A DNA stretch of 64,000 nucleotides from an uncultured Candidatus Saccharibacteria bacterium (GCA_964596875.1 CAZQVT010000001.1:107255-171254), one strand, 5' to 3'. Positions 35,475-62,370 are shown, numbered from the stretch's first letter. Notes: generated from the letters alone by a model not told the origin. Numbers and translations: made by a program.

Positions 35475-35505
35475 ACTTTTTTCTTAAACCATGTTATAAA
35501 TACCT

Positions 35506-35721
35506 CTGGACGCGGAAGTGAACCACTCGTTTCAGCCGCACGAGTGTCACGCCCACTTTTGCGGTTAGAAGGGGTTTAGCCGGCCTCTTCGGCCCTCGCG
35601 AGCTGTTCTTTCCGCGTCTACTTGTAATGTTGGACTGCTTTCTGCGCCGCACGCCACCCCACGCAGTCAGATACGACGCCGCCACCTTCGGCCACCCCTC
35701 ACCAGGGTGGCCCTTTTTTTT
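35506..35721 (+). ncRNA. GC-rich structured leader or small RNA between rseP and proS, with its own promoter and intrinsic terminator
   Basis: Promoter TTAGAC-17-TTATAA (35471-35499). Long-range stem GACGCGGAA (35520-35528) / TTCCGCGTC (35607-35615). Internal hairpins. Terminator GGCCACCCctcaccaGGGTGGCC plus T8 (35690-35721), 34 nt before the proS ATG. Confidence 0.45.
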
Positions 35722-35755
35722 GCTCAAAATATTTTTTTGCTGTAGTATTGTCTTT

Positions 35756-37000
35756 ATGAAACAAACACAACTTTTTACAAAAACACGCAAGGAGGCACCA
35801 GCAGATGAGGCTTCAAAAAACGCCCAACTTTTAATACGCGGAGGTTATGTCCACAAAGAACTCGCTGGCGTTTACTCGTATTTACCTTTAGGTCTTAGAA
35901 CACTAAATAAGATTGTTGCAGTAATTCGTGATGAAATGAACAAGATAGGTGGTCAGGAGTTGCTTATGTCTGCACTTCAAGATAAAGAACTTTGGTCACG
36001 AACAGACAGATGGGACGATGCAAAAGTAGACAACTGGTTTAAAACAGAACTTAAAAGTGGTGGAGAAACTGGTCTTGGTATTACACATGAAGAACCACTA
36101 ACTCGTATCATGAGTGAGCATGTTTCGTCTTATAGAGATTTACCGAAACTTGCTTATCAGTTTCAAAACAAGTTTAGAAATGAACTTAGAGCAAAGTCGG
36201 GTATTATGCGAGGAAAGGAGTTTATGATGAAAGACATGTATTCTTTCTCTAGAGATTATGATGCTCACAATATGGATTATGACAAAATACGTGGTGCTTA
36301 TATTAAAATCTTTGAACGCCTAGGTCTTGGTGATAAAACATATGTAACATACGCAGATGGGGGAATCTTTGCAGATTTTTCTGAGGAATTTCAAACTCTA
36401 ACAGAATCAGGTGAAGATATTGTATATGTACACGAGGGTAAAAAAATTGCTGTAAACAAAGAGGTATATACGGACGAAAGTCTTGCAAAACTCGGTGTGT
36501 CAAAGGATGAGTTGGTTGAAAGAAAGGCTGTAGAAGTCGGTAATATTTTTCATCTTGGTACAAGATTTTCTGATGCGATCGGTTTGAAATACAAAGACGA
36601 GGACGGTAGTGAAAAATCTGTTGTGATGGGTAGTTATGGAATCGGTCCAACTAGAGTTATGGGTACAATCGTCGAAGTTTTATCGGATGAAAAAGGAATA
36701 GTTTGGCCAAAAGAAGTCGCACCGTTTGCTATACACCTTGTTCGCCTAGGTGTAAATGATGCAACAGTAAAATATGCTGATGACTTGTATGAAAAACTAA
36801 AACAAAATGGCGTAGAAGTTCTTTACGACGATAGAGACTTGCGACCAGGAGAAAAGTTTGCCGACTCTGACCTTATTGGTATACCTGTTCGTTTTGTTGT
36901 AAGTGACAAAACTGTCGCCGAAGACAAAGTTGAAGTAAAAATGCGAACAGAATCAGATTCAAAACTTGTGAGTGTAGATGAGGCCTTGAAATTAATTTAA
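35756..37000 (+). CDS. proS: prolyl-tRNA synthetase
   Basis: MKQTQLFTKTRKEAPADEASKNAQLLIRGGYVHK start and class II motifs. The track start 35627 is rejected because it reads through the terminator. Confidence 0.85.
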   Translation: MKQTQLFTKTRKEAPADEASKNAQLLIRGGYVHKELAGVYSYLPLGLRTLNKIVAVIRDEMNKIGGQELLMSALQDKELWSRTDRWDDAKVDNWFKTELKSGGETGLGITHEEPLTRIMSEHVSSYRDLPKLAYQFQNKFRNELRAKSGIMRGKEFMMKDMYSFSRDYDAHNMDYDKIRGAYIKIFERLGLGDKTYVTYADGGIFADFSEEFQTLTESGEDIVYVHEGKKIAVNKEVYTDESLAKLGVSKDELVERKAVEVGNIFHLGTRFSDAIGLKYKDEDGSEKSVVMGSYGIGPTRVMGTIVEVLSDEKGIVWPKEVAPFAIHLVRLGVNDATVKYADDLYEKLKQNGVEVLYDDRDLRPGEKFADSDLIGIPVRFVVSDKTVAEDKVEVKMRTESDSKLVSVDEALKLI

Positions 37001-37023: not shown

Positions 37024-37131
37024 TTTTTATCGCAACCTTAAAAACTCCAGCGAGTTTTTAAGGCCAGTCCTCGGCCAAAGTCGTCAAGATGGAGTGCCTT
37101 GACGACACCATGCTTTTGGCCTGCGGGGGCG
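37024..37131 (+). repeat. TIR element family 2, copy C
   Basis: Hairpin TTAAAAACTCCAGCGAGTTTTTAA. Stems GTCGTCAAG..CTTGACGAC and GGCCAAA..TTTGGCC, the latter covarying with GCCTCC/GGAGGC in copy B. CCATGCT..CTGCGGGGGCGCT. Confidence 0.6.
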
Positions 37132-37166
37132 CTAAAAAACCATGAGTCGACGAGATTTTTTTAATT

Positions 37167-38246
37167 GTGTTAGTATGTCTAAAAATGATTAAAAACCTGG
37201 AACAATTTAAACGATACATTTCCAATGATATTGGGATAGACTTGGGTACGGCAAACACCCTCGTTTATTTGTCTGGTAAGGGTATTGTTCTAAACGAACC
37301 GTCTGTTGTGGCTATAAACCAGAAAACTGGTCAGGTTGTGGCGGTGGGTAGGGATGCGAAACAAATGCTGGGTAGAACTCCGCAACATATTGTGGCTGTG
37401 CGACCTTTGGTAGATGGTGTGATTTCTGACTTTGAGGTAACAGAAGAAATGATTACATATCTTTTAAACAAGGCGCAGAAAGGTAACACAAAACTTTTGG
37501 GTCCTCGCGTTGTTGTGGGTGTACCATCTGGCATAACAAACGTAGAAATACGCGCGGTACGTGACGCGACAAAAAACGCCGGAGCGTCAGAAGTGCATAT
37601 TGTAGAAGAACCAATGGCCGCTGCTATAGGTATGCGACTTCCTGTTATGGACCCAAGTGGAACCATGATTATAGATATAGGTGGAGGAACTACAGATATT
37701 GCTGTGATTTCTCTAGGTGGAGTTGTTCGAAGTAAAAATTTGAAGATTGCTGGGGATAAACTAAACAACGATATTATTTCGTACATGCGAAGCGAGTTTA
37801 AAATCCTTGTTGGTGAAAAAACTGCAGAAGAAATAAAAATAGCGATTGGCGCAATAATGCCAGGGGATGAACCACTAGAGGCAAGTGTAAAGGGTCGTGA
37901 CCTTATTACGGGACTTCCTCGTGAGGTTATAATAACTGACTCTGATATTCGTGAAGCGATTTCGCAGTCGATAAATACTTTGGTAGATGCGGTAAAAGAA
38001 GTTTTGGAAACAACACCACCAGAAGTTTTGTCAGACATTATGCAAAAGGGCATTTTCCTCGCTGGTGGCGGAGCACTTATAGTTGGTCTGGCTGAAATAA
38101 TCTCGGAATACACAAAAATACCAGTACACATTGCTCCAGATCCTCTGACTGCAGTTTGTCGTGGTACTGGTATAATTTTGGAAAACCTAGAAACATACAA
38201 AGATGTACTAATAACAAACAAAGATGAACTTCCTCCTAAAAAGTAA
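37167..38246 (+). CDS. mreB: rod shape-determining protein MreB (paralog 2), first gene of mreBCD-mrdA
   Basis: IGIDLGTANTLVYLSGKGIVLNEPSVVAI. Alternative start 37185. Confidence 0.9.
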   Translation: MLVCLKMIKNLEQFKRYISNDIGIDLGTANTLVYLSGKGIVLNEPSVVAINQKTGQVVAVGRDAKQMLGRTPQHIVAVRPLVDGVISDFEVTEEMITYLLNKAQKGNTKLLGPRVVVGVPSGITNVEIRAVRDATKNAGASEVHIVEEPMAAAIGMRLPVMDPSGTMIIDIGGGTTDIAVISLGGVVRSKNLKIAGDKLNNDIISYMRSEFKILVGEKTAEEIKIAIGAIMPGDEPLEASVKGRDLITGLPREVIITDSDIREAISQSINTLVDAVKEVLETTPPEVLSDIMQKGIFLAGGGALIVGLAEIISEYTKIPVHIAPDPLTAVCRGTGIILENLETYKDVLITNKDELPPKK

Positions 38247-43109: not shown

Positions 43110-43123
43110 ATCTCTTACTCACA

Positions 43124-43262
43124 TATCTTTTCTCCAGACCGCTCGCTTTTCCTGCGAAAAACTCACTTTGTCCTCAGTCGCAATTTGTCAATGAACCGAG
43201 ATTACTCGGACTTTGACAAAACCATGCTTGCTCCCTGCGGAGTCTTGCGAAAAGATCTGTCC
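43124..43262 (+). repeat. TIR element family 2, copy D (divergent)
   Basis: GTCCTCAGTCGCAATTTGTCAATG..CTTTGACAAAACCATGCTTGCTCCCTGCGGAGTC. The inner stem TTTGTCAA/TTGACAAA covaries with GTCGTCAAG/CTTGACGAC in the other copies. Confidence 0.5.
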
Positions 43263-43317
43263 GGCGATATTTATTTATAATATTTACAAAATAATTTTAG
43301 TGTGGTATCGTCAGAGG

Positions 43318-43600
43318 TGGAAAGGGGTGGCCTACGGAAAGCCCAGCCTCGGCTGGGTCTACCGGTGTCCTCCTCCTAAGGGTCATCCCTTTCCGTTTAT
43401 CGGGGTGCAGGGACTGCCTGGTGGGTTCCCAAAGAATGCCTCAGGGATGTTGTGTTCCTAGGGGCTCATTTGGTCCTTGCACCTCGATATCGAGGCACGG
43501 GAGTAGTCGCGTCGGGTTGGTTTCACAAAGTCGCGTATAACTACCAACCCGATTGGCTCCCGTGCCTCGAAAACTCAATGCACCCTCGGTGCATTTTTTC
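43318..43600 (+). ncRNA. GC-rich structured RNA (about 280 nt) of unknown class, with own promoter and terminator
   Basis: Promoter TTTACA-17-TATCGT (43283-43311). Stems GGCACGGGAG/CTCCCGTGCC, GGGTTGGT/ACCAACCC and CCAGCctcgGCTGG, plus alternative GGAAAGGG/CCCTTTCC pairings. Terminator ATGCACCCTCGGTGCAT plus T6 (43578-43599). No credible ORF. Confidence 0.45.
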
Positions 43601-43625
43601 ATATAATTTTTCAAGAATTCAAATT

Positions 43626-43654
43626 TGACAGTGACAATAAATAGTGTTATTATA
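43626..43654 (+). promoter_or_regulatory. sigma70-like promoter TTGACA-17-TATTAT for the amidase gene
   Basis: TTGACAgtgacaataaatagtgtTATTAT, then RBS AAGGAGG 4 nt before ATG 43695. Confidence 0.55.
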
Positions 43655-43694
43655 AACAAAGACTGACTTACATCCTGTAGGTCAAGGAGGCTCC

Positions 43695-44453
43695 ATGAGA
43701 TTGCTGATGCTTGTTCTTTTGGTCGCGTTGGCAGTCTTGCCTACCGAGACCAAAGAACAGAGAAAGTCACGACCCGCCTTGAGTGGTTGGGTTGTGGTTC
43801 TGGATCCAGGCCACGGTGGCGTTGATCCCGGTTCGTCCGGGACATTCAATGGCAAACGTGTGGTCGAGGATGAATACGTCTACGACGTAGCTCTTCGTGC
43901 CAAAAGGATTATCCGCTCAATGGGCGGACTATCCTTCCTGACGATCCAGGACAAAGTCGGCGAAAGATCATTGCCGGCACAATCAGTGTTTCCGGACGTT
44001 CGTTCGGAAACCTACACAGGAACATCTGTGGCTGTCCGTGCTGGTTCCGATGGTCTTAATCGTCGGCTTGCTTATGGCAACAGTATTAGCCGTAAGTATC
44101 CAAAGCATAGACAGGCTTGGATATCCATTCACTTCGATGTCCTCGGCAAAAACCGAGTCATCGAGGGGGTTCGGATCATCAAGGCAGAGTCGAGCAACAG
44201 GCTGGCGGATGCTCTCGAAGCGTCCTTTGCAAAGTACGACCGTTTGCGCGACTACGCGCCGGTTGTACAAAGCGGAGACCCGCAGTTTGGGATGCGCAAC
44301 CTGTTCATCCTGAATGGCAACAACAGGATTCGTGAAAAGGTGCTTGTTGAGTTGGGAAACTTCAACAACACAACAGACGTGTGGAGGGTTCGTAACTCCG
44401 TCACGCGTGAAGCGTACGCAAGAGCGATCGCAGAAGCCTTGCTACGCTGGTAA
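43695..44453 (+). CDS. N-acetylmuramoyl-L-alanine amidase (Amidase_3 family), secreted, GC-rich
   Basis: Signal peptide. VVLDPGHGGVDPG, ISIHFD and VLVELGNFNN (LVExGFxSN-like) motifs. About 58% GC. Confidence 0.75.
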   Translation: MRLLMLVLLVALAVLPTETKEQRKSRPALSGWVVVLDPGHGGVDPGSSGTFNGKRVVEDEYVYDVALRAKRIIRSMGGLSFLTIQDKVGERSLPAQSVFPDVRSETYTGTSVAVRAGSDGLNRRLAYGNSISRKYPKHRQAWISIHFDVLGKNRVIEGVRIIKAESSNRLADALEASFAKYDRLRDYAPVVQSGDPQFGMRNLFILNGNNRIREKVLVELGNFNNTTDVWRVRNSVTREAYARAIAEALLRW

Positions 44454-44461
44454 GGCGGGGA

Positions 44462-44541
44462 AATCCCGCACAGGTCGTCCGAAGGACGGCCTTTCTCGTT
44501 TATAAATTTTTACCAACTTGGACATCCGATGTCCAAGTTGG
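44462..44541. terminator. hairpin cluster: GCGGGGAAATCCCGC, GGTCGTCCgaaGGACGGCC plus TTTCTCGTTT, and a perfect 29-bp palindrome CCAACTTGGACATCCGATGTCCAAGTTGG (44513-44541)
   Basis: Seen directly. Lies between the amidase and mraZ. Confidence 0.55.
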
Positions 44542-44599
44542 ACTTTACATGAAACTCAAAATGGGTTTTATTTTTTTATCCACAGGATTTTTGGGACAA

Positions 44600-48067: not shown

Positions 48068-48187
48068 ACTTCCAAATTCTCCCGAACTCCTTGTTTCGTG
48101 TTTTGAAATGCTCGTCACCTTACTACTTGTAAGGCTTCTCGTATTTCCAAACCCTCAACGTCGGATTTCATCCAGATTTGGAAGTTT
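48066..48187 (+). repeat. MITE/REP-like element family 1, copy R2 (perfect 12-bp TIRs AAACTTCCAAAT / ATTTGGAAGTTT)
   Basis: Overlaps the ftsI stop by 2 nt. Core TTTTGAAATGCTCGTCACCTTACTACTTGTAAGGCTTCTCGTATTTCCAAACCCTCAACGTCGGA. Confidence 0.65.
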
Positions 48188-48218: not shown

Positions 48219-48719
48219 TTAAAATTGAGGGATTACTACAATAGAACATTTGCTTTCAAATTCAGATATCTTTACTGAATTATCTACTCCGTCCACTAGG
48301 GACCACTCTTTTTGTGATGCTTCTAATCTTTCTATTGTGTTTAAAATTATTAAATCTAGTTCGAGCACAATATCATTTGCAGTGCGATCTTGTTGAAGAA
48401 AACTCAAGCAATCTAATGTATCATATTTATCTTGCAAATTTTTTGGCGTGAGTGAATTATTCTCGACAGATTTCATAAAATTTTGTTGAGCGATAGCGTA
48501 CCGTTTATAGGCGGATTCAAGTTGAGAATTTTTTGAAAATCTTTCACTGATCCATTCTTGTACATCGTCACGAATTCCGTCAGAATCCAAATCGATTCCA
48601 GATAGTGTGTGCTGAATGTTTTTGGTAGTCTTTGTATTATCGTATTTTATATATGAATATGACAATATAATATGAATTACTATTATGAAACATGCTAAAA
48701 ATTTTTTATTTAATTTCAT
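48219..48719 (-). CDS. hypothetical secreted/membrane-anchored protein
   Basis: N-terminal TM or signal sequence. AT-rich host-like composition. Confidence 0.4.
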   Translation of the reverse strand: MKLNKKFLACFIIVIHIILSYSYIKYDNTKTTKNIQHTLSGIDLDSDGIRDDVQEWISERFSKNSQLESAYKRYAIAQQNFMKSVENNSLTPKNLQDKYDTLDCLSFLQQDRTANDIVLELDLIILNTIERLEASQKEWSLVDGVDNSVKISEFESKCSIVVIPQF

Positions 48720-48778
48720 ATCTAAATTATAGCAATATATACGAGATTTTGCGTAGAATTCAAATACAACTAAGTTCG

Positions 48779-49438
48779 CTAAGGTTTTAGAACAATTCTG
48801 TCCTTAGCTTCTTTGGTTATGGTGCTTCTTATTTGTGCCAGTGCATCTACTTCAAGTATTTCTCGGATATGGTTTATAGACGACTCTCTTATTCCACTCT
48901 CTCTGTTTCCCAGAAGAGAAGCTAGGTTTTCATCAATAATTTTTGCATATTTTTCTATATCAGCATGTTCAGTAGAGTTTTCCTTTTTATAGTGACTATT
49001 TCCAACCTCTATCAAAACTCTTTCGTACTCTATTAGTTCATCTTCAAGTTTTTCTGTTAGCCATGCACTGTATTTTCTTCGTATTCTAACTAGAGGTAAA
49101 ACAAGAAGTCCTGTTTCTTTACTGGTGCCATTCTGAGTCAGTTCATCAAAAGTGTTTTCTATTGCTTCAATGTATTCCTCACAAAACTGTACGTGTTTGT
49201 CGTAAGCAACAGCTGCCATATGTGCTCCAGTTCCTGTCGCAAAGTTATTCAAGCTTATTTGTCGTATTGTTCCATAAAAGTGTTCTATCTTTTCTGTGAA
49301 AATATCCATTAGGAAAGAAAATAGTGCAAGTATTCCAGGCAGGGCAACTAGTGTTTTAATGAACGTGCTGGCAGGCAGGTTTATAGATAGGAGGAAAGAC
49401 ACACAAAGAAGCAGTATCTGTAGGCGGTGTTTTTTCAT
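48779..49438 (-). CDS. hypothetical membrane protein
   Basis: Two N-terminal TMs. 219 aa. Confidence 0.4.
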   Translation of the reverse strand: MKKHRLQILLLCVSFLLSINLPASTFIKTLVALPGILALFSFLMDIFTEKIEHFYGTIRQISLNNFATGTGAHMAAVAYDKHVQFCEEYIEAIENTFDELTQNGTSKETGLLVLPLVRIRRKYSAWLTEKLEDELIEYERVLIEVGNSHYKKENSTEHADIEKYAKIIDENLASLLGNRESGIRESSINHIREILEVDALAQIRSTITKEAKDRIVLKP

Positions 49439-49487
49439 AAGAACTTAAGGGTAGGACATTGTGAGGGGGGTGTCAACAGAACTATAC

Positions 49488-49516
49488 TTGACTTACTTGT
49501 ATAAATGTGATATACT
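49488..49516 (+). promoter_or_regulatory. near-consensus sigma70 promoter TTGACT-17-TATACT
   Basis: TTGACTtacttgtataaatgtgaTATACT. About 100-nt structured 5' UTR (ATGAGtaGGTGG..CCACCTCAT) before ORF 49620. Confidence 0.55.
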
Positions 49517-49619
49517 CTATACAGTAATTCCTATTCGTTATGAGTAGGTGGCTCGCAAGAGCAACGAGGCAGTATTTCCCACCTCATCAAAGGGAAATGT
49601 TCGTCACAAGGAGGCCGTT

Positions 49620-49991
49620 ATGGCCACCACGCAGAGTCATGGAATCACTTCGGGAACTCTGGAGTTGCAGAGACGTCGGATTGTCGCGGGCCCATCCCGC
49701 GAATGTCTGTTCGACTCTCTTCGGCTCGGGACCTTCCGTAACAGGATGGCCATTGCCTTCACGGTCGCGCCATCGCACCTGACTGGCAGAAACCTGGCAG
49801 ATGGTCGGCGGTTCGTTCCCGGCAACCTGATGTTCCACGCCACGGTTGTCATGATCCGTCCGGAAGACGGAAGTGGCTATAACTGGCTGTTCGAACTCAG
49901 CGACGAAAATCGGACGCTCGGTTCAGACAAGTTGCGTGGGTACATGAACACGAACCTTCGCACGGGCTGGGTCGAGCCGATCTTCGACTAG
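49620..49991 (+). CDS. GC-rich hypothetical protein (123 aa)
   Basis: RBS AAGGAGG 5 nt before the ATG. About 60% GC. Terminator CAGGCGCACttccttcgggatGTGCGCCTG plus T9 at 50007-50046. Confidence 0.45.
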   Translation: MATTQSHGITSGTLELQRRRIVAGPSRECLFDSLRLGTFRNRMAIAFTVAPSHLTGRNLADGRRFVPGNLMFHATVVMIRPEDGSGYNWLFELSDENRTLGSDKLRGYMNTNLRTGWVEPIFD

Positions 49992-50126
49992 ACCGCCTCC
50001 GCTTCACAGGCGCACTTCCTTCGGGATGTGCGCCTGGTTTTTTTGTAGGGGAATTATTTTGAGATGCCGTGGGATAGAGAGTTCAAGTTTTTTTACTTAG
50101 TTAATTTACTGTGCTAGCATTTGTAA

Positions 50127-50666
50127 ATGCAAGAGGCAACTCCTTTTTCAGACACTATTTCATTATTAGCACTTATTATTTCTTTCGGAGCTTTGGCATG
50201 GAACATAGTTAGAGATTTTGTTTTAGACCGAGTAAAGATAGAGTTTTTCATATCAATGGGGCACATGAGGCAGATTAAAGGTAGTCCCACTGCATTATTT
50301 GCTGAACATGGTGTATTTAGTGATGAAATAGAAAATTCAAAATTGATGTTAACTATGATAAACAATAGTAGAAGGCATTTATATCTTCAAAAAGTTCAGG
50401 GAAAATTCAAGACAGTAATTGAAAATAATAAAGTTTATTTTTCTGTTGCTGTTGCTGGTTTGCCTAAAAAACTCGAATCTTATGAAATGTTTTCTGCAGT
50501 ATCAGATATGGTTCCGAGTGATATTCTATTGGAAAATTTAATTAAAAATAATATTGATTCAATTTGGGTGGAGGACACTTCTAATCACAAATGGTATATA
50601 ACCAAGACCAATCTTGAAAAATTAAGAGAAACGGCTTTTCAGATAAAAAAAGGTGAGCCACAATAA
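50127..50666 (+). CDS. hypothetical protein with N-terminal TM
   Basis: AT-rich. 179 aa. Confidence 0.35.
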   Translation: MQEATPFSDTISLLALIISFGALAWNIVRDFVLDRVKIEFFISMGHMRQIKGSPTALFAEHGVFSDEIENSKLMLTMINNSRRHLYLQKVQGKFKTVIENNKVYFSVAVAGLPKKLESYEMFSAVSDMVPSDILLENLIKNNIDSIWVEDTSNHKWYITKTNLEKLRETAFQIKKGEPQ

Positions 50667-50753
50667 TTTGCTTTTCGTCAAAAGCAAATTTTCCAGCCCC
50701 GGACTCAGCCGTTTTTCTTGCTAGAAAAACATGCTTCCGTCTTCACAAAAGCG

Positions 50754-50784
50754 AAAAAAGACTAGAGCAGTCTAGTCTTTTTTG
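50754..50784. terminator. bidirectional hairpin AAAAAAGACTAGAGCAGTCTAGTCTTTTTT
   Basis: Perfect stem with flanking A and T runs. Confidence 0.65.
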
Positions 50785-50798
50785 CACGCGGGCTTTTG

Positions 50799-50870
50799 TG
50801 ACCCTATGGGGAGTCGAACCCCAATTGCAGCCTTGAGAAGGCCGCGTCCTAACCATTAGACGATAGGGCC
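50799..50870 (-). tRNA. tRNA-Glu (CTC)
   Basis: Reverse complement GGCCCTATCGTCTAATGGTTAGGACGCGGCCTTCTCAAGGCTGCAATTGGGGTTCGACTCCCCATAGGGTCA folds as a cloverleaf. Anticodon loop TTCTCAA. CCA not encoded. Confidence 0.8.
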
Positions 50871-51067
50871 AATGTAAATTCTAAAAATCTTGAGAAAACT
50901 TCGTCCTAGTCACGTATCAAAGTCTGCTGACTTTGTACGCGACCCCACCTCACGCCGACGCGTTCCGGTCGTTCGTTTGGGTCCCAGCCCAAACTTCACC
51001 GCCATACGATAAGGCCATGAGGAACAAGGTGATAATAACATTTATAGAGAAACTTTCAAACGTTGTT

Positions 51068-51097
51068 TTGACAGTGATGAAAAATGTGTGCTATAGT
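51068..51097 (+). promoter_or_regulatory. sigma70 promoter TTGACA-18-TATAGT
   Basis: Upstream of a structured leader (CAACCTACC..GGTAGGTTG) and ORF 51161. Confidence 0.5.
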
Positions 51098-51160
51098 TTT
51101 GAGTGGACAACCTACCGCATGTGCAGTCGCACAAGGCTTCGGGTAGGTTGCGAGGGGATT

Positions 51161-51286
51161 ATGCTCGAGAGTTTCAGACTCGTTTTTGAGGGCGTGGTTC
51201 AGTATCTTCCACCCCCTCAGGTTCTCATCGGATGTCTCATCGCGGGTGAAATGGTTCGTGACCTGCATGACCATTTCGTACGGTAA
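51161..51286 (+). CDS. GC-rich micro-ORF (41 aa, MLESFRLVFEGVVQYLPPPQVLIGCLIAGEMVRDLHDHFVR)
   Basis: RBS GAGGGG 3 nt before the ATG. Terminator CCCCGTG..CACGGGGTTTTT at 51311-51353. Confidence 0.35.
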   Translation: MLESFRLVFEGVVQYLPPPQVLIGCLIAGEMVRDLHDHFVR

Positions 51287-51359
51287 CCTCCGCACGAACA
51301 ACAACATCGGCCCCGTGGGTGTGTGCAATGCGCGCACGCTCACGGGGTTTTTCGTATAC

Positions 51360-51388
51360 TTGACAGAATAGGGTTATATGGTGTATAA
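51360..51388 (+). promoter_or_regulatory. consensus sigma70 promoter TTGACA-17-TATAAT
   Basis: TTGACAgaatagggttatatggtgTATAAT. Followed by a 5' UTR with hairpins CAGTGGTAA..TTACCACTG and CTTGCatatcGCAAG. Confidence 0.6.
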
Positions 51389-51451
51389 TAATGGCAGGAC
51401 AGTGGTAAACTCTTGCATATCGCAAGGTGTTACCACTGCCGGGAGAACACC

Positions 51452-51559
51452 ATGTTCACACCCTTCGAACTCACGTTGACCCTCACGATCTTCGTCGGTC
51501 TCGGCGTCGTCCAGGCGCTCGCCAGGCGCGACCTCGTTCTGTCCATCCGGAAGCGCTAG
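51452..51559 (+). CDS. 35-aa hydrophobic peptide (MFTPFELTLTLTIFVGLGVVQALARRDLVLSIRKR), type I toxin-like
   Basis: Single TM helix plus basic C-terminus. Structured 5' UTR, RBS GGGAG, and terminator GAGCCTCTACGC..GCGTAGAGGCTC plus T-run at 51580-51620. Confidence 0.4.
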   Translation: MFTPFELTLTLTIFVGLGVVQALARRDLVLSIRKR

Positions 51560-51665
51560 ACGCACCTCCGGCCCACATCGAGCCTCTACGCACAACATCG
51601 CGTAGAGGCTCATCTTTTTTATATGATATTTAAAAAAAACAAATAAAATGATATATTAGGAAAAT

Positions 51666-52013
51666 ATGATAACAGCAATAAAATCTTTTAAATACGCGGT
51701 ACGCGGACTAACGAACACATGGAAGGAAGAAAGAAATTTTAAGATAGAGGTTTTTGTGGGGTTTGTAGTGCTTTTCTACGCTTTCTATTTTAGTTTTACT
51801 TTTGCTGAAATAGTTTTCTGTCTTATCGCAGTAACAATGGTGCTAGTTGCAGAAATCATCAACACTATCGTGGAGGATTTGTGTAACAAGGTACAACCAA
51901 ACCAGGACCCAGCAATAGAAAAAATAAAAGACATGTCAGCGGCTTTTGTACTACTTACTGTGCTTTCATCTGTTTTTATCGGAGTTATGGTTCTGATAAA
52001 CCACTTTACATAG
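51666..52013 (+). CDS. dgkA: diacylglycerol kinase (prokaryotic DgkA family)
   Basis: MITAIKSFKYAVRGLTNTWKEERNFKIE and 3 TM. 115 aa. Confidence 0.8.
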   Translation: MITAIKSFKYAVRGLTNTWKEERNFKIEVFVGFVVLFYAFYFSFTFAEIVFCLIAVTMVLVAEIINTIVEDLCNKVQPNQDPAIEKIKDMSAAFVLLTVLSSVFIGVMVLINHFT

Positions 52014-52014
52014 A

Positions 52015-52713
52015 ATGAAGTATCTAGATGTATCCAAGGAAGTTAAAAAGCTTTCAAGTAAAGAAAGAGCTACTCGTTCGCAGTCATTTTTTAAAACAGG
52101 AAAAGGAGAGTACGGTTTCGGAGATATTTTTATAGGTCTTACAGTGCCAGAAATGAAACTTGTTGCCAAAAAGTATAAAGAAATAGACTTTGTTGAGGTA
52201 CAAAAACTTTTAGACTCTAAAATTCACGAAGAAAGGTTTATTGGGCTAACCATTTTGGATTTGAAGTTTGAAAAGGCAAATGAAATACTACGGAAGAAAA
52301 TAGTGAGCATGTACCTAAAAAATACAAAAAATGTAAACAACTGGGATTTGGTAGATACATCTGCGTCATATATTTTAGGAAGGTATCTTTTGGATAAAAA
52401 AAGAGATGTTTTGTATAAATTCTCAAAATCAAAAAATCTATGGGAGAGAAGAATAGCAATAGTTGCAACCTACGAGTTTATTAGAAACAAACAATATTCC
52501 GATACTCTAAGTATTTCAAAAGTTTTACTGGGGGACAAGAAAGATTTGATCCACAAGGCAGTTGGCTGGATGCTACGCGAGGTCGGCAAGAAAGATGAGG
52601 CTATCTTAAAAAAGTTTTTAATTGAAAACATAAAAGAACTCCCACGAACCACACTAAGGTATGCCATTGAAAGATTTGCAGAACCTGAAAGAAAAAAGTT
52701 TCTAAGCATGTAG
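52015..52713 (+). CDS. DNA alkylation repair protein (AlkD-like HEAT-repeat glycosylase)
   Basis: About 230 aa, all-helical, with WDLVD and W..RE motifs typical of the family. Confidence 0.6.
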   Translation: MKYLDVSKEVKKLSSKERATRSQSFFKTGKGEYGFGDIFIGLTVPEMKLVAKKYKEIDFVEVQKLLDSKIHEERFIGLTILDLKFEKANEILRKKIVSMYLKNTKNVNNWDLVDTSASYILGRYLLDKKRDVLYKFSKSKNLWERRIAIVATYEFIRNKQYSDTLSISKVLLGDKKDLIHKAVGWMLREVGKKDEAILKKFLIENIKELPRTTLRYAIERFAEPERKKFLSM

Positions 52714-52757: not shown

Positions 52758-55493
52758 ATGGAAAATCCTACTAACCAGCGCTTTGCTACACCAGAAGCTG
52801 AAATTGCTTACTTGCGAGAGCAGATTTCTAACAAAGAAAAAATTCTTCGCGAAACAAACCCAAACTTAAACAGTGAAGAAGTTGTAAAAGAAGAAATAGA
52901 AAAATACAAAAATGCTTTGTCGCACGAAGTTTTGGACGAAACCTTGCAACTTTCAAAAGTAGACATGGAGTCTATTGTTTTAAACCTAGAACCAGAGACT
53001 CATGATAACAAAATAGAGGAACTTTTAAGTATTTTAAATACAAAAGGCATCAAAAACGCGATGTCTGTTTTGGCAGAAATGAAAGACCCGCACTTAGAAG
53101 ACGATTTTCATAGGTTTTTAGTGCAATATATAAAACATGGCTATGAGGCAAAAGGTGTAAGTATTTCTGTAGATGAGTTTCGTGGACTAGATATGACTTT
53201 GTTTGAGGTTGTTTTGCCAGAAGAAGCAGGGGAACATAATAAAAAGCCACTAAAGGAACTTGTTTCTAGTATGGAACAGTTTTTGGCCGGAATGCTGTCA
53301 GTTGTAAATGAAAACGGCACAAGAGACTACTCTAAAAACTATATTGTACTTGAAATAGCAAACCCAAACGGTAGTGACCAGTTTGTTTTCTATGTTGCAG
53401 TGCCAAACTCGTATAGACAACTTTTTGAAAAACAGATCATTTCTGTATTTCACAATGCAGTTCTAAACGAGGCAGTGTGTGACTACAATATTTTCAATAC
53501 TGACGGTGTTTCTGTCGGTTCTGTTCTAGAGGCAACCGTAAATCCCATCTACCAGTTTAAAACCTACGAGAGTTTTGACCACGACCCAATGAACGTTATC
53601 TTAAACTCTTTTTCTAAAATCCAAAAAGAAGGTGAGGGCGCGGGTATCCAAATAGTTTTTGCTCCAAAAGACGACTATTTCCTGAAAAATTATAAATACG
53701 CTATAGAACAAATAGAAAATGGTGAAAAAGTAAAAGACGCTATATATCTTCCAGAAACAATTGCCGGAAGTTTTGGTAAAGGTCTAAAGTCTTTGTTCAA
53801 AGCGTCTCCAAAAGAAGAAGAAAAAAAACCAGTAGATACAGAAGCGATAGATAAGATTAAAAAGAAAATGAGTAGTGTGATAGTGGCTACAAACATTCGT
53901 CTTATCGCTTCTGCAAAAACCAGACTAGAAGCTGAAAAGATTTTGCAAACACTAGAGTCTAGTTTCAACCAGTTTTCTGACCCTAGTGCAAACGGCTTGA
54001 AAGCAAAAAGACTAGACAAAGCAAGTTTGGAAAAAATGTTTAGAAACTATTCTTTTCGAAGTTATAACCACAACGAACTTTTACCTCTAAACCTTCATGA
54101 GGTTACTTCGCTGTACCACTTCCAAAACAATGGACTTTCACCTACGCCACAACTAAAACAAACACAGGCTGTTTCTGCTCCTGCTCCTGCAGAAATGACT
54201 GCAGGCGGAACACTTTTGGGAACGAACACATATAGAAACACTGACACCGCAATATATATAAAAGACAACGACCGTTTGAGACATACATATACTATTGGTC
54301 AGACAGGTACAGGTAAAACAACCTTGCTTGTAAATATGATCATGCAGGACATAAACCAGGGAAATGGTTGCTGTTTTATCGACCCACACGGAAGTGATGT
54401 ACAAAATATTCTTTCAAATATTCCAAAAGATAGAATAAAAGACGTGATTTATTTTGATCCAAGTTATACAGAAAGACCGATGGCACTAAACATGCTGGAG
54501 TATGATAGAAGTCATCCTGAACAAAAAACTTTTGTGGTAAACGAGTTGTTTAGTATCTTCCAAAAACTATATGGAGGCGTGCCAGAGTCTTTGGGGCCAA
54601 TGTTCGAGCAATACTTTAGAAACGCAACAATGCTTGTGATAGAAGACCCAGACACAGGATGCACTTTGCTTGATGTTTCCAGAGTTATGACAAACAAAGC
54701 CTTTCGAGATATGAAAGTAGCCAACTGTAAAAACCCAGTAGTTGTTCAGTTCTGGAAAGAAATAGCTGAAAAAGCAGGCGGTGAAGCAAGTTTGGCAAAC
54801 ATTGTTCCATATATTACTTCAAAGTTTGATGTATTTTTGGCAAACGATATTATGCGACCTATAGTAGCGCAAGAAAAATCTTCTTTTGATTTCCGAAAGA
54901 TAATGGATGAAAAGAAAATACTTCTTGTAAACCTTTCAAAGGGAAGATTGGGGGACATAAACGCCAACCTTATCGGTCTTATACTTGTAGGTAAAATACT
55001 TATGGCTGCACTTTCTCGTGTGGACAAACTTGGCACAGAAGACTTGCCTCCTTTCTATCTATATATAGACGAGTTTCAAAATATTACGACAAACTCTATT
55101 TCAACTATTCTTTCTGAGGCAAGAAAATATAAACTTTCTTTAAATATTGCGCACCAGTTTATCGCCCAACTTCAACAGGAAATAAAAGATGCTGTGTTTG
55201 GAAATGTTGGTTCAATGTTTGTGTATCGTGTGGGTGCAGAAGATGCGGAGTTTCTAGAAAAACAGTTCTCGCCTGTGTTTACTGCAAAAGATATTATGAA
55301 TATCGACAACTATAATTTTTATACAAAAATGTTGGTAGATGGAAAAACAGTAAAAGCGTTCAATGTAAAAGCAAACCCAGCACCAAAAGGAAACCCTGGT
55401 GTAGTAGAAAACTTAAAACAACTTTCATATCTTACATACGGAGGGGATAGAGCAAAAATAGAAGAAGAGATACTGGCGAAATATAAAAAATAA
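52758..55493 (+). CDS. large P-loop ATPase, TraG/TraD/VirD4-like type IV secretion coupling-protein family (DUF87-like), orphan
   Basis: Walker A IGQTGTGKTT, DPHGS, Walker B LYIDEFQN. 911 aa with a long N-terminal soluble domain. No other T4SS genes in the window. Confidence 0.55.
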   Translation: MENPTNQRFATPEAEIAYLREQISNKEKILRETNPNLNSEEVVKEEIEKYKNALSHEVLDETLQLSKVDMESIVLNLEPETHDNKIEELLSILNTKGIKNAMSVLAEMKDPHLEDDFHRFLVQYIKHGYEAKGVSISVDEFRGLDMTLFEVVLPEEAGEHNKKPLKELVSSMEQFLAGMLSVVNENGTRDYSKNYIVLEIANPNGSDQFVFYVAVPNSYRQLFEKQIISVFHNAVLNEAVCDYNIFNTDGVSVGSVLEATVNPIYQFKTYESFDHDPMNVILNSFSKIQKEGEGAGIQIVFAPKDDYFLKNYKYAIEQIENGEKVKDAIYLPETIAGSFGKGLKSLFKASPKEEEKKPVDTEAIDKIKKKMSSVIVATNIRLIASAKTRLEAEKILQTLESSFNQFSDPSANGLKAKRLDKASLEKMFRNYSFRSYNHNELLPLNLHEVTSLYHFQNNGLSPTPQLKQTQAVSAPAPAEMTAGGTLLGTNTYRNTDTAIYIKDNDRLRHTYTIGQTGTGKTTLLVNMIMQDINQGNGCCFIDPHGSDVQNILSNIPKDRIKDVIYFDPSYTERPMALNMLEYDRSHPEQKTFVVNELFSIFQKLYGGVPESLGPMFEQYFRNATMLVIEDPDTGCTLLDVSRVMTNKAFRDMKVANCKNPVVVQFWKEIAEKAGGEASLANIVPYITSKFDVFLANDIMRPIVAQEKSSFDFRKIMDEKKILLVNLSKGRLGDINANLIGLILVGKILMAALSRVDKLGTEDLPPFYLYIDEFQNITTNSISTILSEARKYKLSLNIAHQFIAQLQQEIKDAVFGNVGSMFVYRVGAEDAEFLEKQFSPVFTAKDIMNIDNYNFYTKMLVDGKTVKAFNVKANPAPKGNPGVVENLKQLSYLTYGGDRAKIEEEILAKYKK

Positions 55494-55543
55494 ATTATGG
55501 GCCGATCGTGGCGTTCGACCAGCCCATAAACCGCAGGTTTGCA

Positions 55544-55750
55544 TTAGGCACCTCGAGCTTTCTTCAGAAGTTCGAGTCGGAGTCCTCTCGCGATTTCTCT
55601 CACATCCATCCTGATCCTTTCGTTCTCCTCGGTGTCGAGGGAGTTTCTGCGGAACGCTTCCTCGAAGATTTCACCGAGCAGGTTTGGGTTCGCTCCGCGT
55701 CTTATGAACTCTCTGTTCACTTCGCGAGCGATTTTTTCGGCGAGACTCAT
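55544..55750 (-). CDS. GC-rich small helical protein (68 aa)
   Basis: RBS AAGGAGG 5 nt before ATG 55750. About 60% GC. Second gene of a two-gene minus-strand cassette. Confidence 0.4.
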   Translation of the reverse strand: MSLAEKIAREVNREFIRRGANPNLLGEIFEEAFRRNSLDTEENERIRMDVREIARGLRLELLKKARGA

Positions 55751-55842
55751 AGGCACCTCCTTTCCGACATTATTATCGCACAATTTTTTGCATTGAAATA
55801 GGGGCGCGCCTTTCGACGTGCCCCCAGTTCGGCGAGGAGGAA

Positions 55843-55959
55843 CTAGTCCTTGTCGCCGTTCGGTAGCCCCCGGTAGTCGAGTCGGGGATCGGTCTTGCGA
55901 CCTTTCCACTTCACTGCAAACGAGGACTTCTTCACCTTACCTTCATTTTTCTTGGCCAT
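55843..55959 (-). CDS. GC-rich Lys-rich micro-protein (38 aa, MAKKNEGKVKKSSFAVKWKGRKTDPRLDYRGLPNGDKD)
   Basis: RBS AAAGGAGG 8 nt upstream. The segment ...KGRKTDPRLDYRGL has faint bL33-like character. Confidence 0.35.
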   Translation of the reverse strand: MAKKNEGKVKKSSFAVKWKGRKTDPRLDYRGLPNGDKD

Positions 55960-55983
55960 GATGTTGGCCTCCTTTCATTTATT

Positions 55984-56013
55984 ATTATACTACAATAACA
56001 CCTGAAGTGTCAA
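55984..56013 (-). promoter_or_regulatory. consensus sigma70 promoter TTGACA-18-TATAAT on the minus strand
   Basis: Minus strand reads TTGACActtcaggtgttattgtagTATAAT, driving the 38-aa and 68-aa ORFs. Confidence 0.55.
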
Positions 56014-57929: not shown

Positions 57930-57936
57930 ATAATAA

Positions 57937-57965
57937 AATGACCTCCGAAAGGAGGTTGTTTTTGT
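57937..57965. terminator. bidirectional terminator AAAATGACCTCCGAAAGGAGGTTGTTTTTG
   Basis: Perfect hairpin with A-run 5' and T-run 3'. Confidence 0.75.
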
Positions 57966-58540
57966 ATAAGGAAAAGGGCTAGGATCGAATGGTCACGTGG
58001 GGTGTGCGTAGAGACCAAGGATACCTAGCCCTTCTGCCGACTTGGGTCGGCTTCAGTTGAAACAGTATAAAGAGCGAGACCGGTAAGACCGATCTGGAGG
58101 GAAAACACGTTCCTCCACGTTGATGCGTGTATTTCACGCACCCCCGAAATCGAGCCTCCACATACTGGCCGCCAACCTATCGCCCTCACTAGGGTCGGGT
58201 TGGACATCATCCAGTCTCGCGTATTAACCAACATTTGTAATGCAGGCAAATACTCGAGACCGGCTTCTGTATGGAACTATAGCACAAATAAAAAATATTT
58301 CAACCATTAGAAAACGGTCGCCAGGCGACCGTCGTAGGTGGTTCCGTAGGAGTGTCGCAGTGTACAAACCGAAAGACAGTTCGGTTTGAATCCTTTTCTG
58401 TGCCACCAGAATGGTATATATCCTCGACGCAACATTCAAACCGTTACAGACTGGGTCGGGAGTCCCCAAGTGTGGAATCGGTGAAGGGCATCTAGAGAAT
58501 CTACACACGGCAGACCTAACTGAACCATTTCACATACTAT
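57966..58540. ncRNA. GC-rich structured region without credible ORF, candidate ncRNA(s); class and strand unresolved
   Basis: About 57% GC between rplU and recR. Stems GGGCTAGG..CCTAGCCC, GGAGGgaaaacacgttCCTCC, TGCGTGtatttcaCGCA, GTCGCCagGCGAC and AAACCGAAagacagTTCGGTTT. Internal minus-strand promoter-like TTGAAA-16-TATAGT (about 58270-58305). Confidence 0.35.
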
Positions 58541-59206: not shown

Positions 59207-59319
59207 TCAAACTTTCAGATTTGTGATAAGGTCGCGTATAAAATTTCGAAATACGAGAAGCCTTACAAGTAGTAAGGCGACGAGAATTTTGAAATTTTAG
59301 ACGATGAGATTAGCCAAAT
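59207..59319 (-). repeat. MITE/REP-like element family 1, copy R4 (inverted orientation)
   Basis: TACGAGAAGCCTTACAAGTAGTAAGGCGACGAGAATTTTGAAA is the reverse complement of the R2 core. Ends AAACTTTCAGATTTG / CCAAATGTGGAAGTTTT. Confidence 0.6.
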
Positions 59320-59328
59320 GTGGAAGTT

Positions 59329-61968: not shown

Positions 61969-62104
61969 TGATTAAAATTTAATTATAATTTGTTAACTGT
62001 ATAATTATAACAAAATAAATTTGATTGTTTGTGAAGTTGGGGATACGAACAAGGCCACACATGCGTGTGGCCTGTACTACGTTTCGCCCACGTAGTTGGG
62101 GTTG

Positions 62105-62293
62105 TTACTCGGCCCTGTTTCTGGCCTCGATGAGCGCGCGTCCTCTTTCAGCCCGCGCCTTGTGGCTGGGGTCTGATCTGTTGCACTCGCACACTCCGTC
62201 GGCGCAGTCCATGTCGTGGGCTGCTTCCATGTCTCCAGCGAGTTTACGGACGAGGGTCTTGTCGGTCGACAGTGGTCGCAGCTGCGGGTCCAT
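62105..62293 (-). CDS. GC-rich small protein (62 aa) with DCADGVCEC Cys motif
   Basis: Minus-strand consensus promoter TTGACT-17-TACAAT (62314-62342). RBS GGAGGC 6 nt before the ATG. Downstream hairpin GGCCACACgcatGTGTGGCC. Confidence 0.45.
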   Translation of the reverse strand: MDPQLRPLSTDKTLVRKLAGDMEAAHDMDCADGVCECNRSDPSHKARAERGRALIEARNRAE

Positions 62294-62370
62294 AGCAAAG
62301 CCTCCAATAGAGAATTGTATCAAGCAACAGTTATTTAGTCAAGTCAAGTATAAATAATATTGTGGAAACA

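What the first reader, a model, noticed from the sequence alone, without database searches (positions are those of the whole stretch)
51060..51620. Tandem micro-gene cassette with consensus promoters: 41-aa ORF plus a 35-aa hydrophobic type-I-toxin-like peptide
Two back-to-back units on the plus strand. Unit 1 is promoter TTGACA-18-TATAGT, a hairpin leader, the 41-aa ORF and a terminator. Unit 2 is a perfect TTGACA-17-TATAAT promoter, a 5' UTR with two hairpins near the RBS, then MFTPFELTLTLTIFVGLGVVQALARRDLVLSIRKR (one TM helix and a basic tail), then a strong terminator. This architecture is that of Hok/Fst/TisB/Ldr-type membrane toxins, whose mRNAs carry long structured 5' UTRs and are controlled by antisense RNA. 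It could be a novel type I toxin-antitoxin locus or a small membrane regulator.
Basis: inference. Interest (0 to 1): 0.7.

Follow-up and report, generated by a model that had tools for sequence, protein, structure and literature searches.

The report
Autonomous micro-gene cassettes; conserved membrane peptide
Two self-contained mini-genes sit in a strain-specific GC-rich insert of an AT-rich Patescibacteria chromosome; the second encodes a real 35-residue membrane peptide with one known relative, but nothing found here shows it is a toxin-antitoxin pair.

Summary
The described anatomy is real. There are two same-strand units, each with a near-consensus sigma-70 promoter, a 5'-terminal hairpin, a Shine-Dalgarno site, a short ORF and an intrinsic terminator.

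Unit 2 (35 aa, one TM helix, basic tail) is very likely a true gene. Its frame is the only one of six that scores as coding, and GC3 is 0.89. One homologue exists among 1.84 billion protein representatives (36 aa, 63% identity). On that contig the promoter, leader hairpin (four compensatory pairs), RBS and ORF are all conserved.

There the upstream neighbour is a different, 206-aa gene with a paralogous promoter. So the two units are independent modules, not a pair. Unit 1 (41 aa) has no homologue and ambiguous coding signal; it may be a ~250-nt RNA.

No antisense promoter and no complementary partner RNA were found, and no known toxin family matches.

The locus is one of about 12 GC-rich (about 50%) islands of ORFan genes in a 40% GC genome. 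Most of them start at one of the window's best promoter matches. This island, the island upstream of it and the one after the VirD4-like gene are absent from the closest syntenic relative.

Best reading: moron-like autonomous accessory cassettes. Type I toxin remains possible but unsupported.

The parts
50798..50870 (-). tRNA-Glu (anticodon CUC); left neighbour of the GC-rich island
   Evidence: ARAGORN; Rfam tRNA 58.5 bits
50889..50908 (-). 20-nt fragment of a tRNA-Glu anticodon arm, 18 nt upstream of the intact tRNA, at the island's left edge
   Evidence: Direct repeat D1. It matches the tRNA-Glu of relative L085 at 18/20, and 0 of 1000 shuffles reach that score.
51032..51059 (-). Promoter-like site (TTGAAA-16-TATTAT with TG), divergent from unit 1 and pointing at tRNA-Glu through a roughly 155-nt GC-rich leader
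   Evidence: 10 of 12 matches. Function is inferred.
51068..51097 (+). Unit 1 promoter: TTGACA-18-TATAGT, TG-extended
   Evidence: 11/12
51105..51150 (+). Unit 1 5'-terminal hairpin (CAACCUACC...GGUAGGUUG)
   Evidence: MFE fold of 51104-51356, z -4.8
51161..51286 (+). 41-aa ORF with SD GAGGGG at 51152-51157. Coding status is unresolved; the unit may instead be a roughly 250-nt structured RNA.
   Evidence: Sequence. No homologue. Codon-model scores for frames +0, +1 and -0 are 6.6, 8.4 and 10.4 bits.
51309..51353 (+). Unit 1 intrinsic terminator (18-pair stem, short T run)
51360..51389 (+). Unit 2 promoter: TTGACA-18-TATAAT (12/12). It is conserved in L162, twice.
51397..51440 (+). Unit 2 5'-terminal hairpin, conserved in structure. 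Four both-sided changes fall in the 6-bp inner stem, and the 7-bp outer stem is kept.
   Evidence: Independent folds of the window and L162
51441..51462 (+). SD GGGAG (51441-51445) and a small hairpin (51442-51462) that pairs part of the SD, the spacer and the UG of the AUG. In L162 it is kept through wobble changes.
51452..51559 (+). 35-aa ORF: MFTPFELTLTLTIFVGLGVVQALARRDLVLSIRKR. One TM segment and a basic C-tail.
51580..51620 (+). Unit 2 intrinsic terminator (12-pair stem, T6); right edge of the GC-rich island
   Evidence: identical in Logan contig L001

Best explanation
The locus is two separate, self-sufficient expression cassettes, not one system. Each cassette carries a strong sigma-70 promoter, a 5'-terminal hairpin, an SD with a start codon, a short ORF and an intrinsic terminator. 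They lie inside a GC-rich accessory island (about 50871-51620) inserted beside tRNA-Glu in an AT-rich Patescibacteria-like chromosome.

Unit 2 is a genuine protein gene. Host RNA polymerase would start near 51396. The conserved 5' hairpin most likely stabilises the short mRNA against 5'-end-dependent decay (inferred). A small SD/AUG hairpin may damp translation only modestly (inferred). The 35-aa product would insert as a single-pass helix, N-terminus out and basic tail in, following the positive-inside rule (inferred). The terminator insulates the downstream diacylglycerol kinase gene.

Unit 1 is built the same way, but its product is unresolved: a 41-aa peptide or a roughly 250-nt structured RNA.

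The cassettes behave like phage morons. They are autonomous, compositionally foreign ORFan units that are gained, lost and recombined between otherwise syntenic genomes. The promoter-leader-RBS module is portable between different cargo ORFs.

What the peptide does at the membrane is unknown. The perfect promoter, the weak RBS occlusion and the lack of any partner favour a tolerated small membrane protein over a lethal toxin.
For: Anatomy.

Unit 2 is coding:
- Position-wise GC is 0.60/0.40/0.89, permutation p < 5e-5.
- A codon model trained on 1585 island codons gives +15.8 bits in the ORF frame, the best of six frames.
- One homologue turned up in an exhaustive HMMER search of 1.84e9 representatives: P0001, 36 aa, 63% identity, E 5.7e-6. 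A profile search gave E 1.2e-18, but P0001's own sequence (the L162 ORF) is one of the two rows of that profile.
- The frame is kept across a 3-nt indel, and MFTPFE, GLG and RDLxxSIRK are conserved.

Unit 2 is a module:
- L162 1151-1343 matches window 51359-51553 at 71% identity, covering promoter, leader and ORF.
- The leader hairpin is kept by four compensatory pairs.
- The same promoter-leader-RBS module also drives an unrelated 206-aa ORF on L162.

Foreign and accessory:
- Local GC is 0.50-0.60 against 0.40 for the window.
- The window holds 12 such islands.
- Five of the six best promoter matches sit at island starts.
- Relative L084 (VirD4-like protein 74% identical, syntenic over at least 10 genes) has only about 270 nt where the window has about 3.6 kb between the PBP gene and the diacylglycerol kinase (DAGK) gene. 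It also lacks the island at 55464-56005.
- L082, L084 and L085 carry other GC-rich units at other intergenic sites. The L084 unit read in full has the same build; L082's and L085's are GC-rich ORFs followed by terminators.

Transmembrane character: the best 19-residue Kyte-Doolittle window scores 1.77. The C-tail carries 5 K/R and 1 D, and the N-terminal segment carries a single E.
Against: - Only two family members are known, so conservation rests on one pair.
- Pairwise dN/dS is about 0.78, with differences spread 11/8/11 over the three codon positions. That is not clear purifying selection.
- Promoters, transcription starts and terminators are predictions. There are no expression data.
- The donor of the GC-rich DNA is unknown. 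Nothing matched in phage, plasmid or viral collections.
- Within this window the unit 2 promoter module occurs only once. Recombination at repeated modules is therefore seen only on L162.
- 'Tolerated membrane protein' rests on indirect arguments.
Confidence: 0.55

Rival explanations
1. Unit 2 is the toxin gene of a type I (or type I-like) toxin-antitoxin module. The 35-aa peptide would permeabilise or depolarise the membrane. Its synthesis would be held in check by the leader structure and by an antisense or trans-acting RNA that was not detected here.
For: - The size and layout resemble Ldr/Fst-type toxins: 35 aa, one TM helix and a basic tail.
- The mRNA is stable-looking, with hairpins at both the 5' and 3' ends.
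- A conserved small hairpin covers the SD and AUG.
- The locus lies in accessory, horizontally moving DNA.
- A weak TG-extended -10 (TGTTATCAT at about 51671, minus strand) could give an antisense transcript.
Against: - No sigma-70-like promoter lies on the minus strand of 51380-51640.
- The site at 51671 has a poor -35, overlaps the DAGK start codon and lies in AT-rich DNA, where such matches are common.
- No complementarity of 10 nt or more links unit 1 and unit 2.
- The best antisense match to unit 2 anywhere in the 64 kb is 13 nt, E 0.17.
- Unit 1 is not co-conserved with unit 2.
- No toxin family matched in Pfam, NCBIfam or PADLOC.
- A 12/12 promoter combined with only a roughly 7-pair RBS hairpin would be hard to survive for a potent toxin.
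- This is the only TM micro-ORF among the island small ORFs, and it is not present in multiple copies.
Confidence: 0.15
2. One or both units are non-coding small RNAs, and the short ORFs are incidental.
For: - Both transcripts are unusually structured (z -4.8 and -6.1).
- The coding signal for unit 1 is ambiguous, and the unit has no homologue.
- For unit 2, nucleotide identity is similar across promoter, leader and ORF, and dN/dS is about 0.78.
Against: For unit 2:
- GC3 is 0.89 in the window and 0.83 in L162 (hand count), in the same frame despite 29% divergence.
- The ORF frame is the best of six.
- SD, ATG, stop position and the hydrophobic profile are conserved, and the indel is in frame.

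Both units:
- No Rfam match.

For unit 1 this rival is close to even odds, and the best explanation already allows for it.
Confidence: 0.2
3. Unit 2 is a leader peptide or attenuator that controls the downstream diacylglycerol kinase gene (51666-52013).
For: It is a short ORF followed by a terminator, about 45 nt upstream of the DAGK start and on the same strand.
Against: - The ORF stops 20 nt before the terminator stem, and no alternative antiterminator pairing is evident.
- DAGK has its own promoter-like sites at 51629-51657.
- Relative L084 has DAGK without this unit.
- On L162 the module occurs among unrelated ORFan cassettes, although that contig ends 29 nt after the ORF's stop codon.
Confidence: 0.03

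Closest known systems
Type I toxin-antitoxin systems with small membrane toxins (Ldr/Rdl, Fst/RNAII, Hok/Sok, TisB/IstR-1). Definition taken from the abstracts of PMC8594479 and PMC8309996.
   Same: - A peptide of fewer than 60 aa with one hydrophobic helix and a charged tail. At 35 aa it equals LdrD in length (from my own knowledge).
- A short, stable-looking mRNA.
- The RBS and AUG are partly paired.
- It sits in accessory DNA.
   Different: - No antisense or complementary RNA gene was found.
- No sequence match to any known toxin family.
- The 5' UTR is short, with no long-range 5'-3' pairing.
- The promoter is a perfect consensus.
- The neighbouring unit is not co-inherited.
- Toxicity is untested.
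Phage morons: independent transcription units added to phage genomes (PMC3594210)
   Same: - Each unit has its own promoter and terminator.
- Composition differs from the surrounding genome.
- The units are present or absent between otherwise syntenic relatives.
- The cargo is small ORFan genes.
   Different: - The units lie between core chromosomal genes of a Patescibacteria-like bacterium (PBP, tRNA-Glu, DAGK, VirD4-like), not in a prophage.
- No meaningful PHROG matches (none below E 0.003).
- The direction of the compositional contrast is GC-rich cargo in an AT-rich host.
PeSL regulatory cassettes of T4-type phages: a strong sigma-70-like promoter plus a stem-loop terminator, which mediate shuffling of ORFans (PMC2839356, PMC4122927)
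   Same: - Terminator stem-loop and strong promoter junctions lie between small ORFan genes.
- On L162 two successive junctions share an 88% identical promoter module, with different cargo behind it.
- The regions that carry them are hypervariable.
   Different: - The context is a bacterial chromosome.
- The conserved part is the promoter, leader and RBS rather than terminator plus promoter.
- Only one copy of this module is in the 64-kb window.
- No evidence of mini-circles.
Small bacterial membrane proteins that act as regulators or accessory subunits (e.g. AcrZ, MgtS, KdpF; from my own knowledge)
   Same: A single-pass peptide of 30-50 aa that stands alone as a gene.
   Different: No partner protein or operon context suggests a target, and there is no sequence relation to any of these proteins.

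Membership tests
Type I toxin-antitoxin system | Small (typically under 60 aa) hydrophobic or transmembrane toxin ORF | tested here: met
   35 aa; the best 19-residue Kyte-Doolittle window scores 1.77; the C-tail is basic.
Type I toxin-antitoxin system | Cis-encoded antisense RNA gene overlapping the toxin mRNA | tested here: inconclusive
   - No promoter-like site lies on the minus strand of 51380-51640 at 9/12 or better, nor in a laxer -10/TG scan.
- There is only a weak TGTTATCAT at about 51671.
- Promoter prediction cannot exclude a non-consensus start. RNA-seq is needed.
Type I toxin-antitoxin system | Trans-encoded partner RNA nearby with extended complementarity to the toxin mRNA | tested here: not met
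   - No inverted match of 10 nt or more between unit 1 and unit 2.
- The best antisense match to unit 2 in the 64 kb is 13 nt, E 0.17.
Type I toxin-antitoxin system | Toxin and antitoxin are inherited together | tested here: not met
   In L162, unit 2 is preceded by an unrelated 206-aa gene, and unit 1 is absent. This holds for unit 1 as the candidate partner only.
Type I toxin-antitoxin system | Toxin mRNA is kept translationally inert by structure that sequesters the SD | tested here: inconclusive
   A small conserved hairpin of about 7 pairs pairs part of the SD and part of the AUG. It is weak, and no long-range 5'-3' pairing was seen.
Type I toxin-antitoxin system | Overexpression is toxic (growth arrest or membrane damage) | not testable with these tools
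   This needs an induction assay.
Known type I toxin sequence families in Pfam (from my own knowledge these include Hok/Gef, Fst, Ldr, TisB and Ibs) | Significant match to the family profile | tested here: not met
   - Pfam: no family at E <= 10.
- NCBIfam, PHROGs and PADLOC: none.
- PDB: none.
Moron (autonomous accessory transcription unit) | Own promoter and own terminator flanking the cargo gene | tested here: met
   By prediction only.
Moron (autonomous accessory transcription unit) | Base composition unlike the surrounding genome | tested here: met
   GC is 0.50-0.60 inside the island, about 0.30-0.37 in the flanks and 0.40 window-wide.
Moron (autonomous accessory transcription unit) | Present or absent between otherwise collinear relatives | tested here: met
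   L084 is syntenic but lacks this island, the neighbouring island at 49512-50119 and the island at 55464-56005.
Moron (autonomous accessory transcription unit) | Resides in a phage or prophage genome | tested here: not met
   - The flanks are core genes: PBP, tRNA, DAGK, VirD4-like.
- No meaningful PHROG, phage or viral-contig matches.
PeSL-type shuffling cassette | A conserved composite promoter and stem-loop motif repeated at many ORFan junctions of one genome | tested here: inconclusive
   - L162 has two copies, 88% identical over 43 nt.
- The window has one copy, even with 3 mismatches allowed.
- The terminators are not clearly homologous.

The most novel reading that the evidence does not exclude
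The GC-rich units may be a chromosome-borne counterpart of phage moron/PeSL systems in Patescibacteria. In this reading a portable promoter-leader-RBS module captures and shuffles ORFan genes between genomes. The 35-aa peptide would be one of its cargoes, acting as a membrane-active toxin or addiction/exclusion factor of a new family. That would make it the first type I-like toxin in the Candidate Phyla Radiation, controlled in a non-canonical way.
Probability: 0.12. Interest if true: 0.7.

Novelty: new variant of a known kind. Interest (0 to 1): 0.38.

Why it matters
Patescibacteria have tiny genomes, and most of their accessory genes have no known function.

This window shows that much of the strain-specific content comes as compositionally foreign single-gene or few-gene units. 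Each carries its own strong promoter, leader hairpin and terminator. At least one promoter-leader module is reused with different cargo.

If that pattern is general, it gives a handle for finding and dating gene gain in these bacteria. It also gives ready-made expression signals for the first genetic tools in them.

The 35-aa peptide is a clean, testable candidate for a new small membrane protein family. As a type I toxin claim, the case is currently weak.

Tried and rejected
- Exact-sequence look-ups of the 35-, 41-, 123- and 147-aa products, the GC-rich amidase and the flanking 179-aa and 219-aa ORFs found nothing on record.
- Word-indexed protein searches with the 48-aa extension and the 41-aa ORF found nothing.
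- A metagenome scan with the peptide found nothing.
- Viral-contig scans with the peptide, the 123-aa, 181-aa and L162 206-aa proteins found nothing.
- A promoter-module pattern scan of viral contigs gave one hit, L163. It lies in an ordinary 40% GC phage region upstream of an unrelated ORF. About 0.7 such hits are expected by my rough estimate, which assumes a collection of about 1e11 bases, so I rejected it.
- blastn and tblastn against phage and plasmid records gave no match.
That gene proved to be widely transferred (best match 59% identity, in many phyla) and gave no close relative.
- RNAduplex of the two whole transcripts is uninformative at this length. The observed -114 kcal/mol is weaker than the shuffle mean of -123. 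I replaced it with repeat and blastn-short scans.
- AlphaFold of the neighbouring 123-aa island protein without an alignment gave mean pLDDT 47. It is unusable, so no fold search was run.
- MAFFT/RNAalifold misaligned the leader hairpin. I read the pairs from independent folds instead.
- Integron cassette reading: rejected on inspection. The units are dispersed, each has its own promoter, and the hairpins have T tails and no attC core sites. IntI was not searched for.
- tRNA-targeted integration: the tRNA fragment lies on the 5' side, only 18 nt from the intact tRNA, which does not fit a classical att duplication. No integrase ORF was noticed in the region, though none was specifically searched for. 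This remains unexplained.
- Literature searches for GC-rich islands or type I TA systems in Patescibacteria, and for the two run accessions, found nothing relevant.

Full report
**1. What is there**

Unit 1:
- Promoter TTGACA-18-TATAGT at 51068-51097, TG-extended, 11/12.
- A 5' hairpin at 51105-51150.
- SD GAGGGG, then an ATG at 51161 opening a 41-aa ORF that ends at 51286.
- An 18-pair terminator at 51309-51349.

Unit 2:
- Promoter TTGACA-18-TATAAT at 51360-51389, 12/12. The spacer is 18 nt, not 17.
- A 5' hairpin at 51397-51440.
- SD GGGAG, then an ATG at 51452 opening the 35-aa ORF that ends at 51559.
- A 12-pair terminator with T6 at 51580-51620.

Both predicted RNAs fold much better than dinucleotide shuffles (z -4.8 and -6.1). 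Matches of at least 11/12 to the promoter consensus number 6 in the window, against 1.1 +/- 1.2 in simulations. An independent Logan contig (L001, SRR12712864) is identical from 51563 onward. So the sequence is not an assembly artefact of this window alone.

**2. Context changes the picture**

The window is a bacterial chromosome of about 40% GC. It carries rpoC, rpoD, aminoacyl-tRNA synthetases, mreB, a PBP, DAGK and a VirD4-like ATPase. The nearest relatives are Patescibacteria and groundwater metagenome contigs.

The window contains about 12 islands of 49-54% GC (one, at 37232-37703 with 46% GC, is just the 5' part of mreB). The finding occupies one of them (50683-51662), next to tRNA-Glu (50798-50870, minus strand).

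Five of the six best promoter matches in the 64 kb sit at the upstream edge of an island: 7506+, 43625+, 51068+, 51360+ and 56013-. Four more islands start with 10/12 TG-extended promoters: 49488+, 26657-, 58303- and 62342-. Strong terminators close the islands.

The islands hold small ORFs with AGGAGG-type SDs and high GC3. They have no Pfam, PHROG, NCBIfam or PADLOC assignment, except one Amidase_3.

The island just upstream (49488-50045) is a textbook single-gene unit: promoter, SD AAGGAGG, a 123-aa ORF and a terminator. The one at 56013-55495 (minus strand) holds a 38-aa and a 68-aa ORF.

**3. The islands are accessory**

I used the VirD4-like protein to fetch relatives. L084 (74% aa identity) keeps the order PBP, tRNA-Glu, DAGK, VirD4-like and the next five genes. 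Yet it has only about 270 nt between PBP and DAGK, where the window has about 3.6 kb. It has 21 nt where the window has the 55464-56005 island.

L084, L082 and L085 carry their own, unrelated GC-rich units at other intergenic sites. The L084 unit read in full has the same promoter, leader hairpin, SD, small ORF and terminator build. L082's and L085's are GC-rich ORFs followed by terminators.

None of the island proteins of the window has a relative in any of the roughly 160 fetched loci.

**4. Unit 2 is a real, conserved gene module**

- An exhaustive HMMER search of 1.84 billion representatives found one homologue: P0001, MFTPFEAAITLLVFFGLGTVAELAKRDLQMSIRKKS, 63% identity, E 5.7e-6. A profile search that included P0001's own sequence (from L162) found nothing else.
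- P0001 lies on a 1381-nt, 52.6% GC Logan contig (L162, ERR6221060).
- blastn aligns L162 1151-1343 to window 51359-51553 at 71% identity. That covers the promoter, the leader, the SD and the ORF.
- Each leader folds on its own into the same two-tier hairpin. The 7-bp outer stem is kept, with one U-A to U-G change. Four of the six inner-stem pairs are changed on both sides.
- The small hairpin over the SD and AUG is kept through wobble changes.
- The ORF frame has GC 0.60/0.40/0.89 by codon position (p < 5e-5). L162 has GC3 0.83 (my hand count).
- The ORF frame is the best of six under a codon model trained on other island genes: +15.8 bits, against +8.0 for the next frame and +3.4 for the exact antisense register.
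- Weak point: with one pair only, dN/dS is about 0.78.
- The peptide has one hydrophobic stretch (residues 5-23, KD 1.77). Its C-tail holds five K/R and one D. That predicts an N-out, C-in single-pass helix (inference from the positive-inside rule).

**5. The two units are not a pair**

On L162 the unit upstream of the peptide gene is a 206-aa ORFan. Its promoter is 88% identical to the peptide gene's promoter, and its SD-ATG region (GAGGACACCATGTT) matches that of window unit 2. So the expression module is portable and the cargo differs.

Unit 1 of the window has no counterpart there or anywhere else. Its coding signal is ambiguous: frames +0, +1 and -0 score 6.6, 8.4 and 10.4 bits. Unit 1 may encode the 41-aa peptide or simply be a structured RNA of about 250 nt.

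**6. Test of the type I toxin-antitoxin idea**

Type I systems are defined by a toxin mRNA plus a cis- or trans-encoded antisense RNA that pairs with it (PMC8594479, PMC8309996).

What is present:
- The peptide format fits.
- A small SD/AUG hairpin exists.

What is missing:
- No promoter-like site lies on the minus strand of 51380-51640. There is only a weak TGTTATCAT at about 51671, overlapping the DAGK start codon.
- No complementarity of 10 nt or more links units 1 and 2.
- Nothing beyond 13 nt (E 0.17) pairs with unit 2 anywhere in the window.
- No toxin family matches.
- Unit 1 is not co-inherited with unit 2.

A perfect consensus promoter with a lightly occluded RBS also argues against a potent unguarded toxin (inference). 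The idea is not excluded, because promoter prediction is not RNA-seq. I put it at about 0.15.

**7. Best explanation**

These are autonomous accessory cassettes that work like phage morons. Morons are independent transcription units spread by horizontal transfer (PMC3594210). On L162 the cassettes also resemble PeSL junctions, in which a strong promoter plus a stem-loop mediates shuffling of ORFans (PMC2839356). Here, however, they sit in a Patescibacteria chromosome and carry GC-rich cargo.

Unit 2 delivers a small membrane peptide whose role is unknown. The 5' hairpin probably stabilises the mini-mRNA, and the terminator insulates DAGK.

Shown:
- The anatomy.
- The compositional contrast.
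- Presence or absence among relatives.
- Conservation of the unit 2 module.
- Independence of the two units.

Inferred:
- Transcription starts and stops.
- Translation.
- Membrane topology.
- mRNA stabilisation.
- The mechanism of spread.

**8. Verdict**

As a kind of system it is a new variant of a known kind. The peptide family itself is new but has only two members. Interest is moderate.

Noticed in passing
window 7385-7492, 32978-33086, 37041-37146, 43149-43260 (all + strand); L082 825-955 (- strand): A structured element of about 108 nt occurs in several copies. It has a terminator-like hairpin followed by a long irregular helix (GTCGTCAAG...CTTGACGAC, ACCATGCT, CTGCGGAGGC). Nine of 26 pairs show both-sided changes. 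Each window copy lies directly 3' of a conserved gene (rpoD, two aminoacyl-tRNA synthetases, and the unassigned ORF 31922-32935). Two copies mark the left edge of GC-rich islands. There is no Rfam family for it. It is a candidate new RNA motif or REP/MITE-like element.
   Followed up: partly
window 4177-4277 and 48083-48183 (+ strand); 13865-13944 and 59249-59328 (inverted): A repeat of about 100 nt, 76-90% identical, sits immediately after the stop codons of four genes (rpoC, the PBP gene and two minus-strand genes), always in the same orientation relative to the gene. It contains the hairpin CTCGTCACCTTACTAnnnGTAAGG. It may be a lineage-specific 3' element or terminator.
   Followed up: no
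window 50889-50908: A 20-nt fragment of a tRNA-Glu anticodon arm lies 18 nt upstream of the intact tRNA-Glu. It matches the tRNA-Glu of relative L085 at 18/20, and 0 of 1000 shuffles reach that score. The tRNA is also inverted relative to L084. This is a trace of a past rearrangement or integration at the island's edge, with the mechanism unclear.
   Followed up: partly
whole window; islands at 7326-9247, 12771-13858, 16652-17662, 25041-26661, 35435-35803, 43117-44569, 49512-50119, 50683-51662, 55464-56005, 57932-58538, 61996-62359: There are eleven to twelve GC-rich (49-54%) islands in a 40% GC chromosome. Most start at a near-consensus promoter, several end at a strong terminator, and they hold ORFan genes with high GC3. 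The donor is unknown.
   Followed up: partly
window 48219-50666 and 52015-52713, compared with L084 and L085: The interval from the PBP gene to the VirD4-like gene is a hot spot of variation. The window has three AT-rich ORFans and a DNA-alkylation-repair gene there. L085 has a GC-richer cytidylate kinase-like ORF (my reading of its translation, not profile-checked) and what looks like a HhH-GPD/AlkA-type glycosylase gene (also not profile-checked). L084 has neither. The DNA-alkylation-repair gene's best relatives (at most 59% identity) are scattered over archaea and many bacterial phyla, which suggests frequent transfer.
   Followed up: partly
L082 1-780: Two GC-rich small ORFs end in a shared C-terminal domain (...ACLIWxxERVIVxWxWLGCGLxGCDPVLLA). 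Each is followed by a strong terminator. They lie upstream of the VirD4-like gene of a relative.
   Followed up: no
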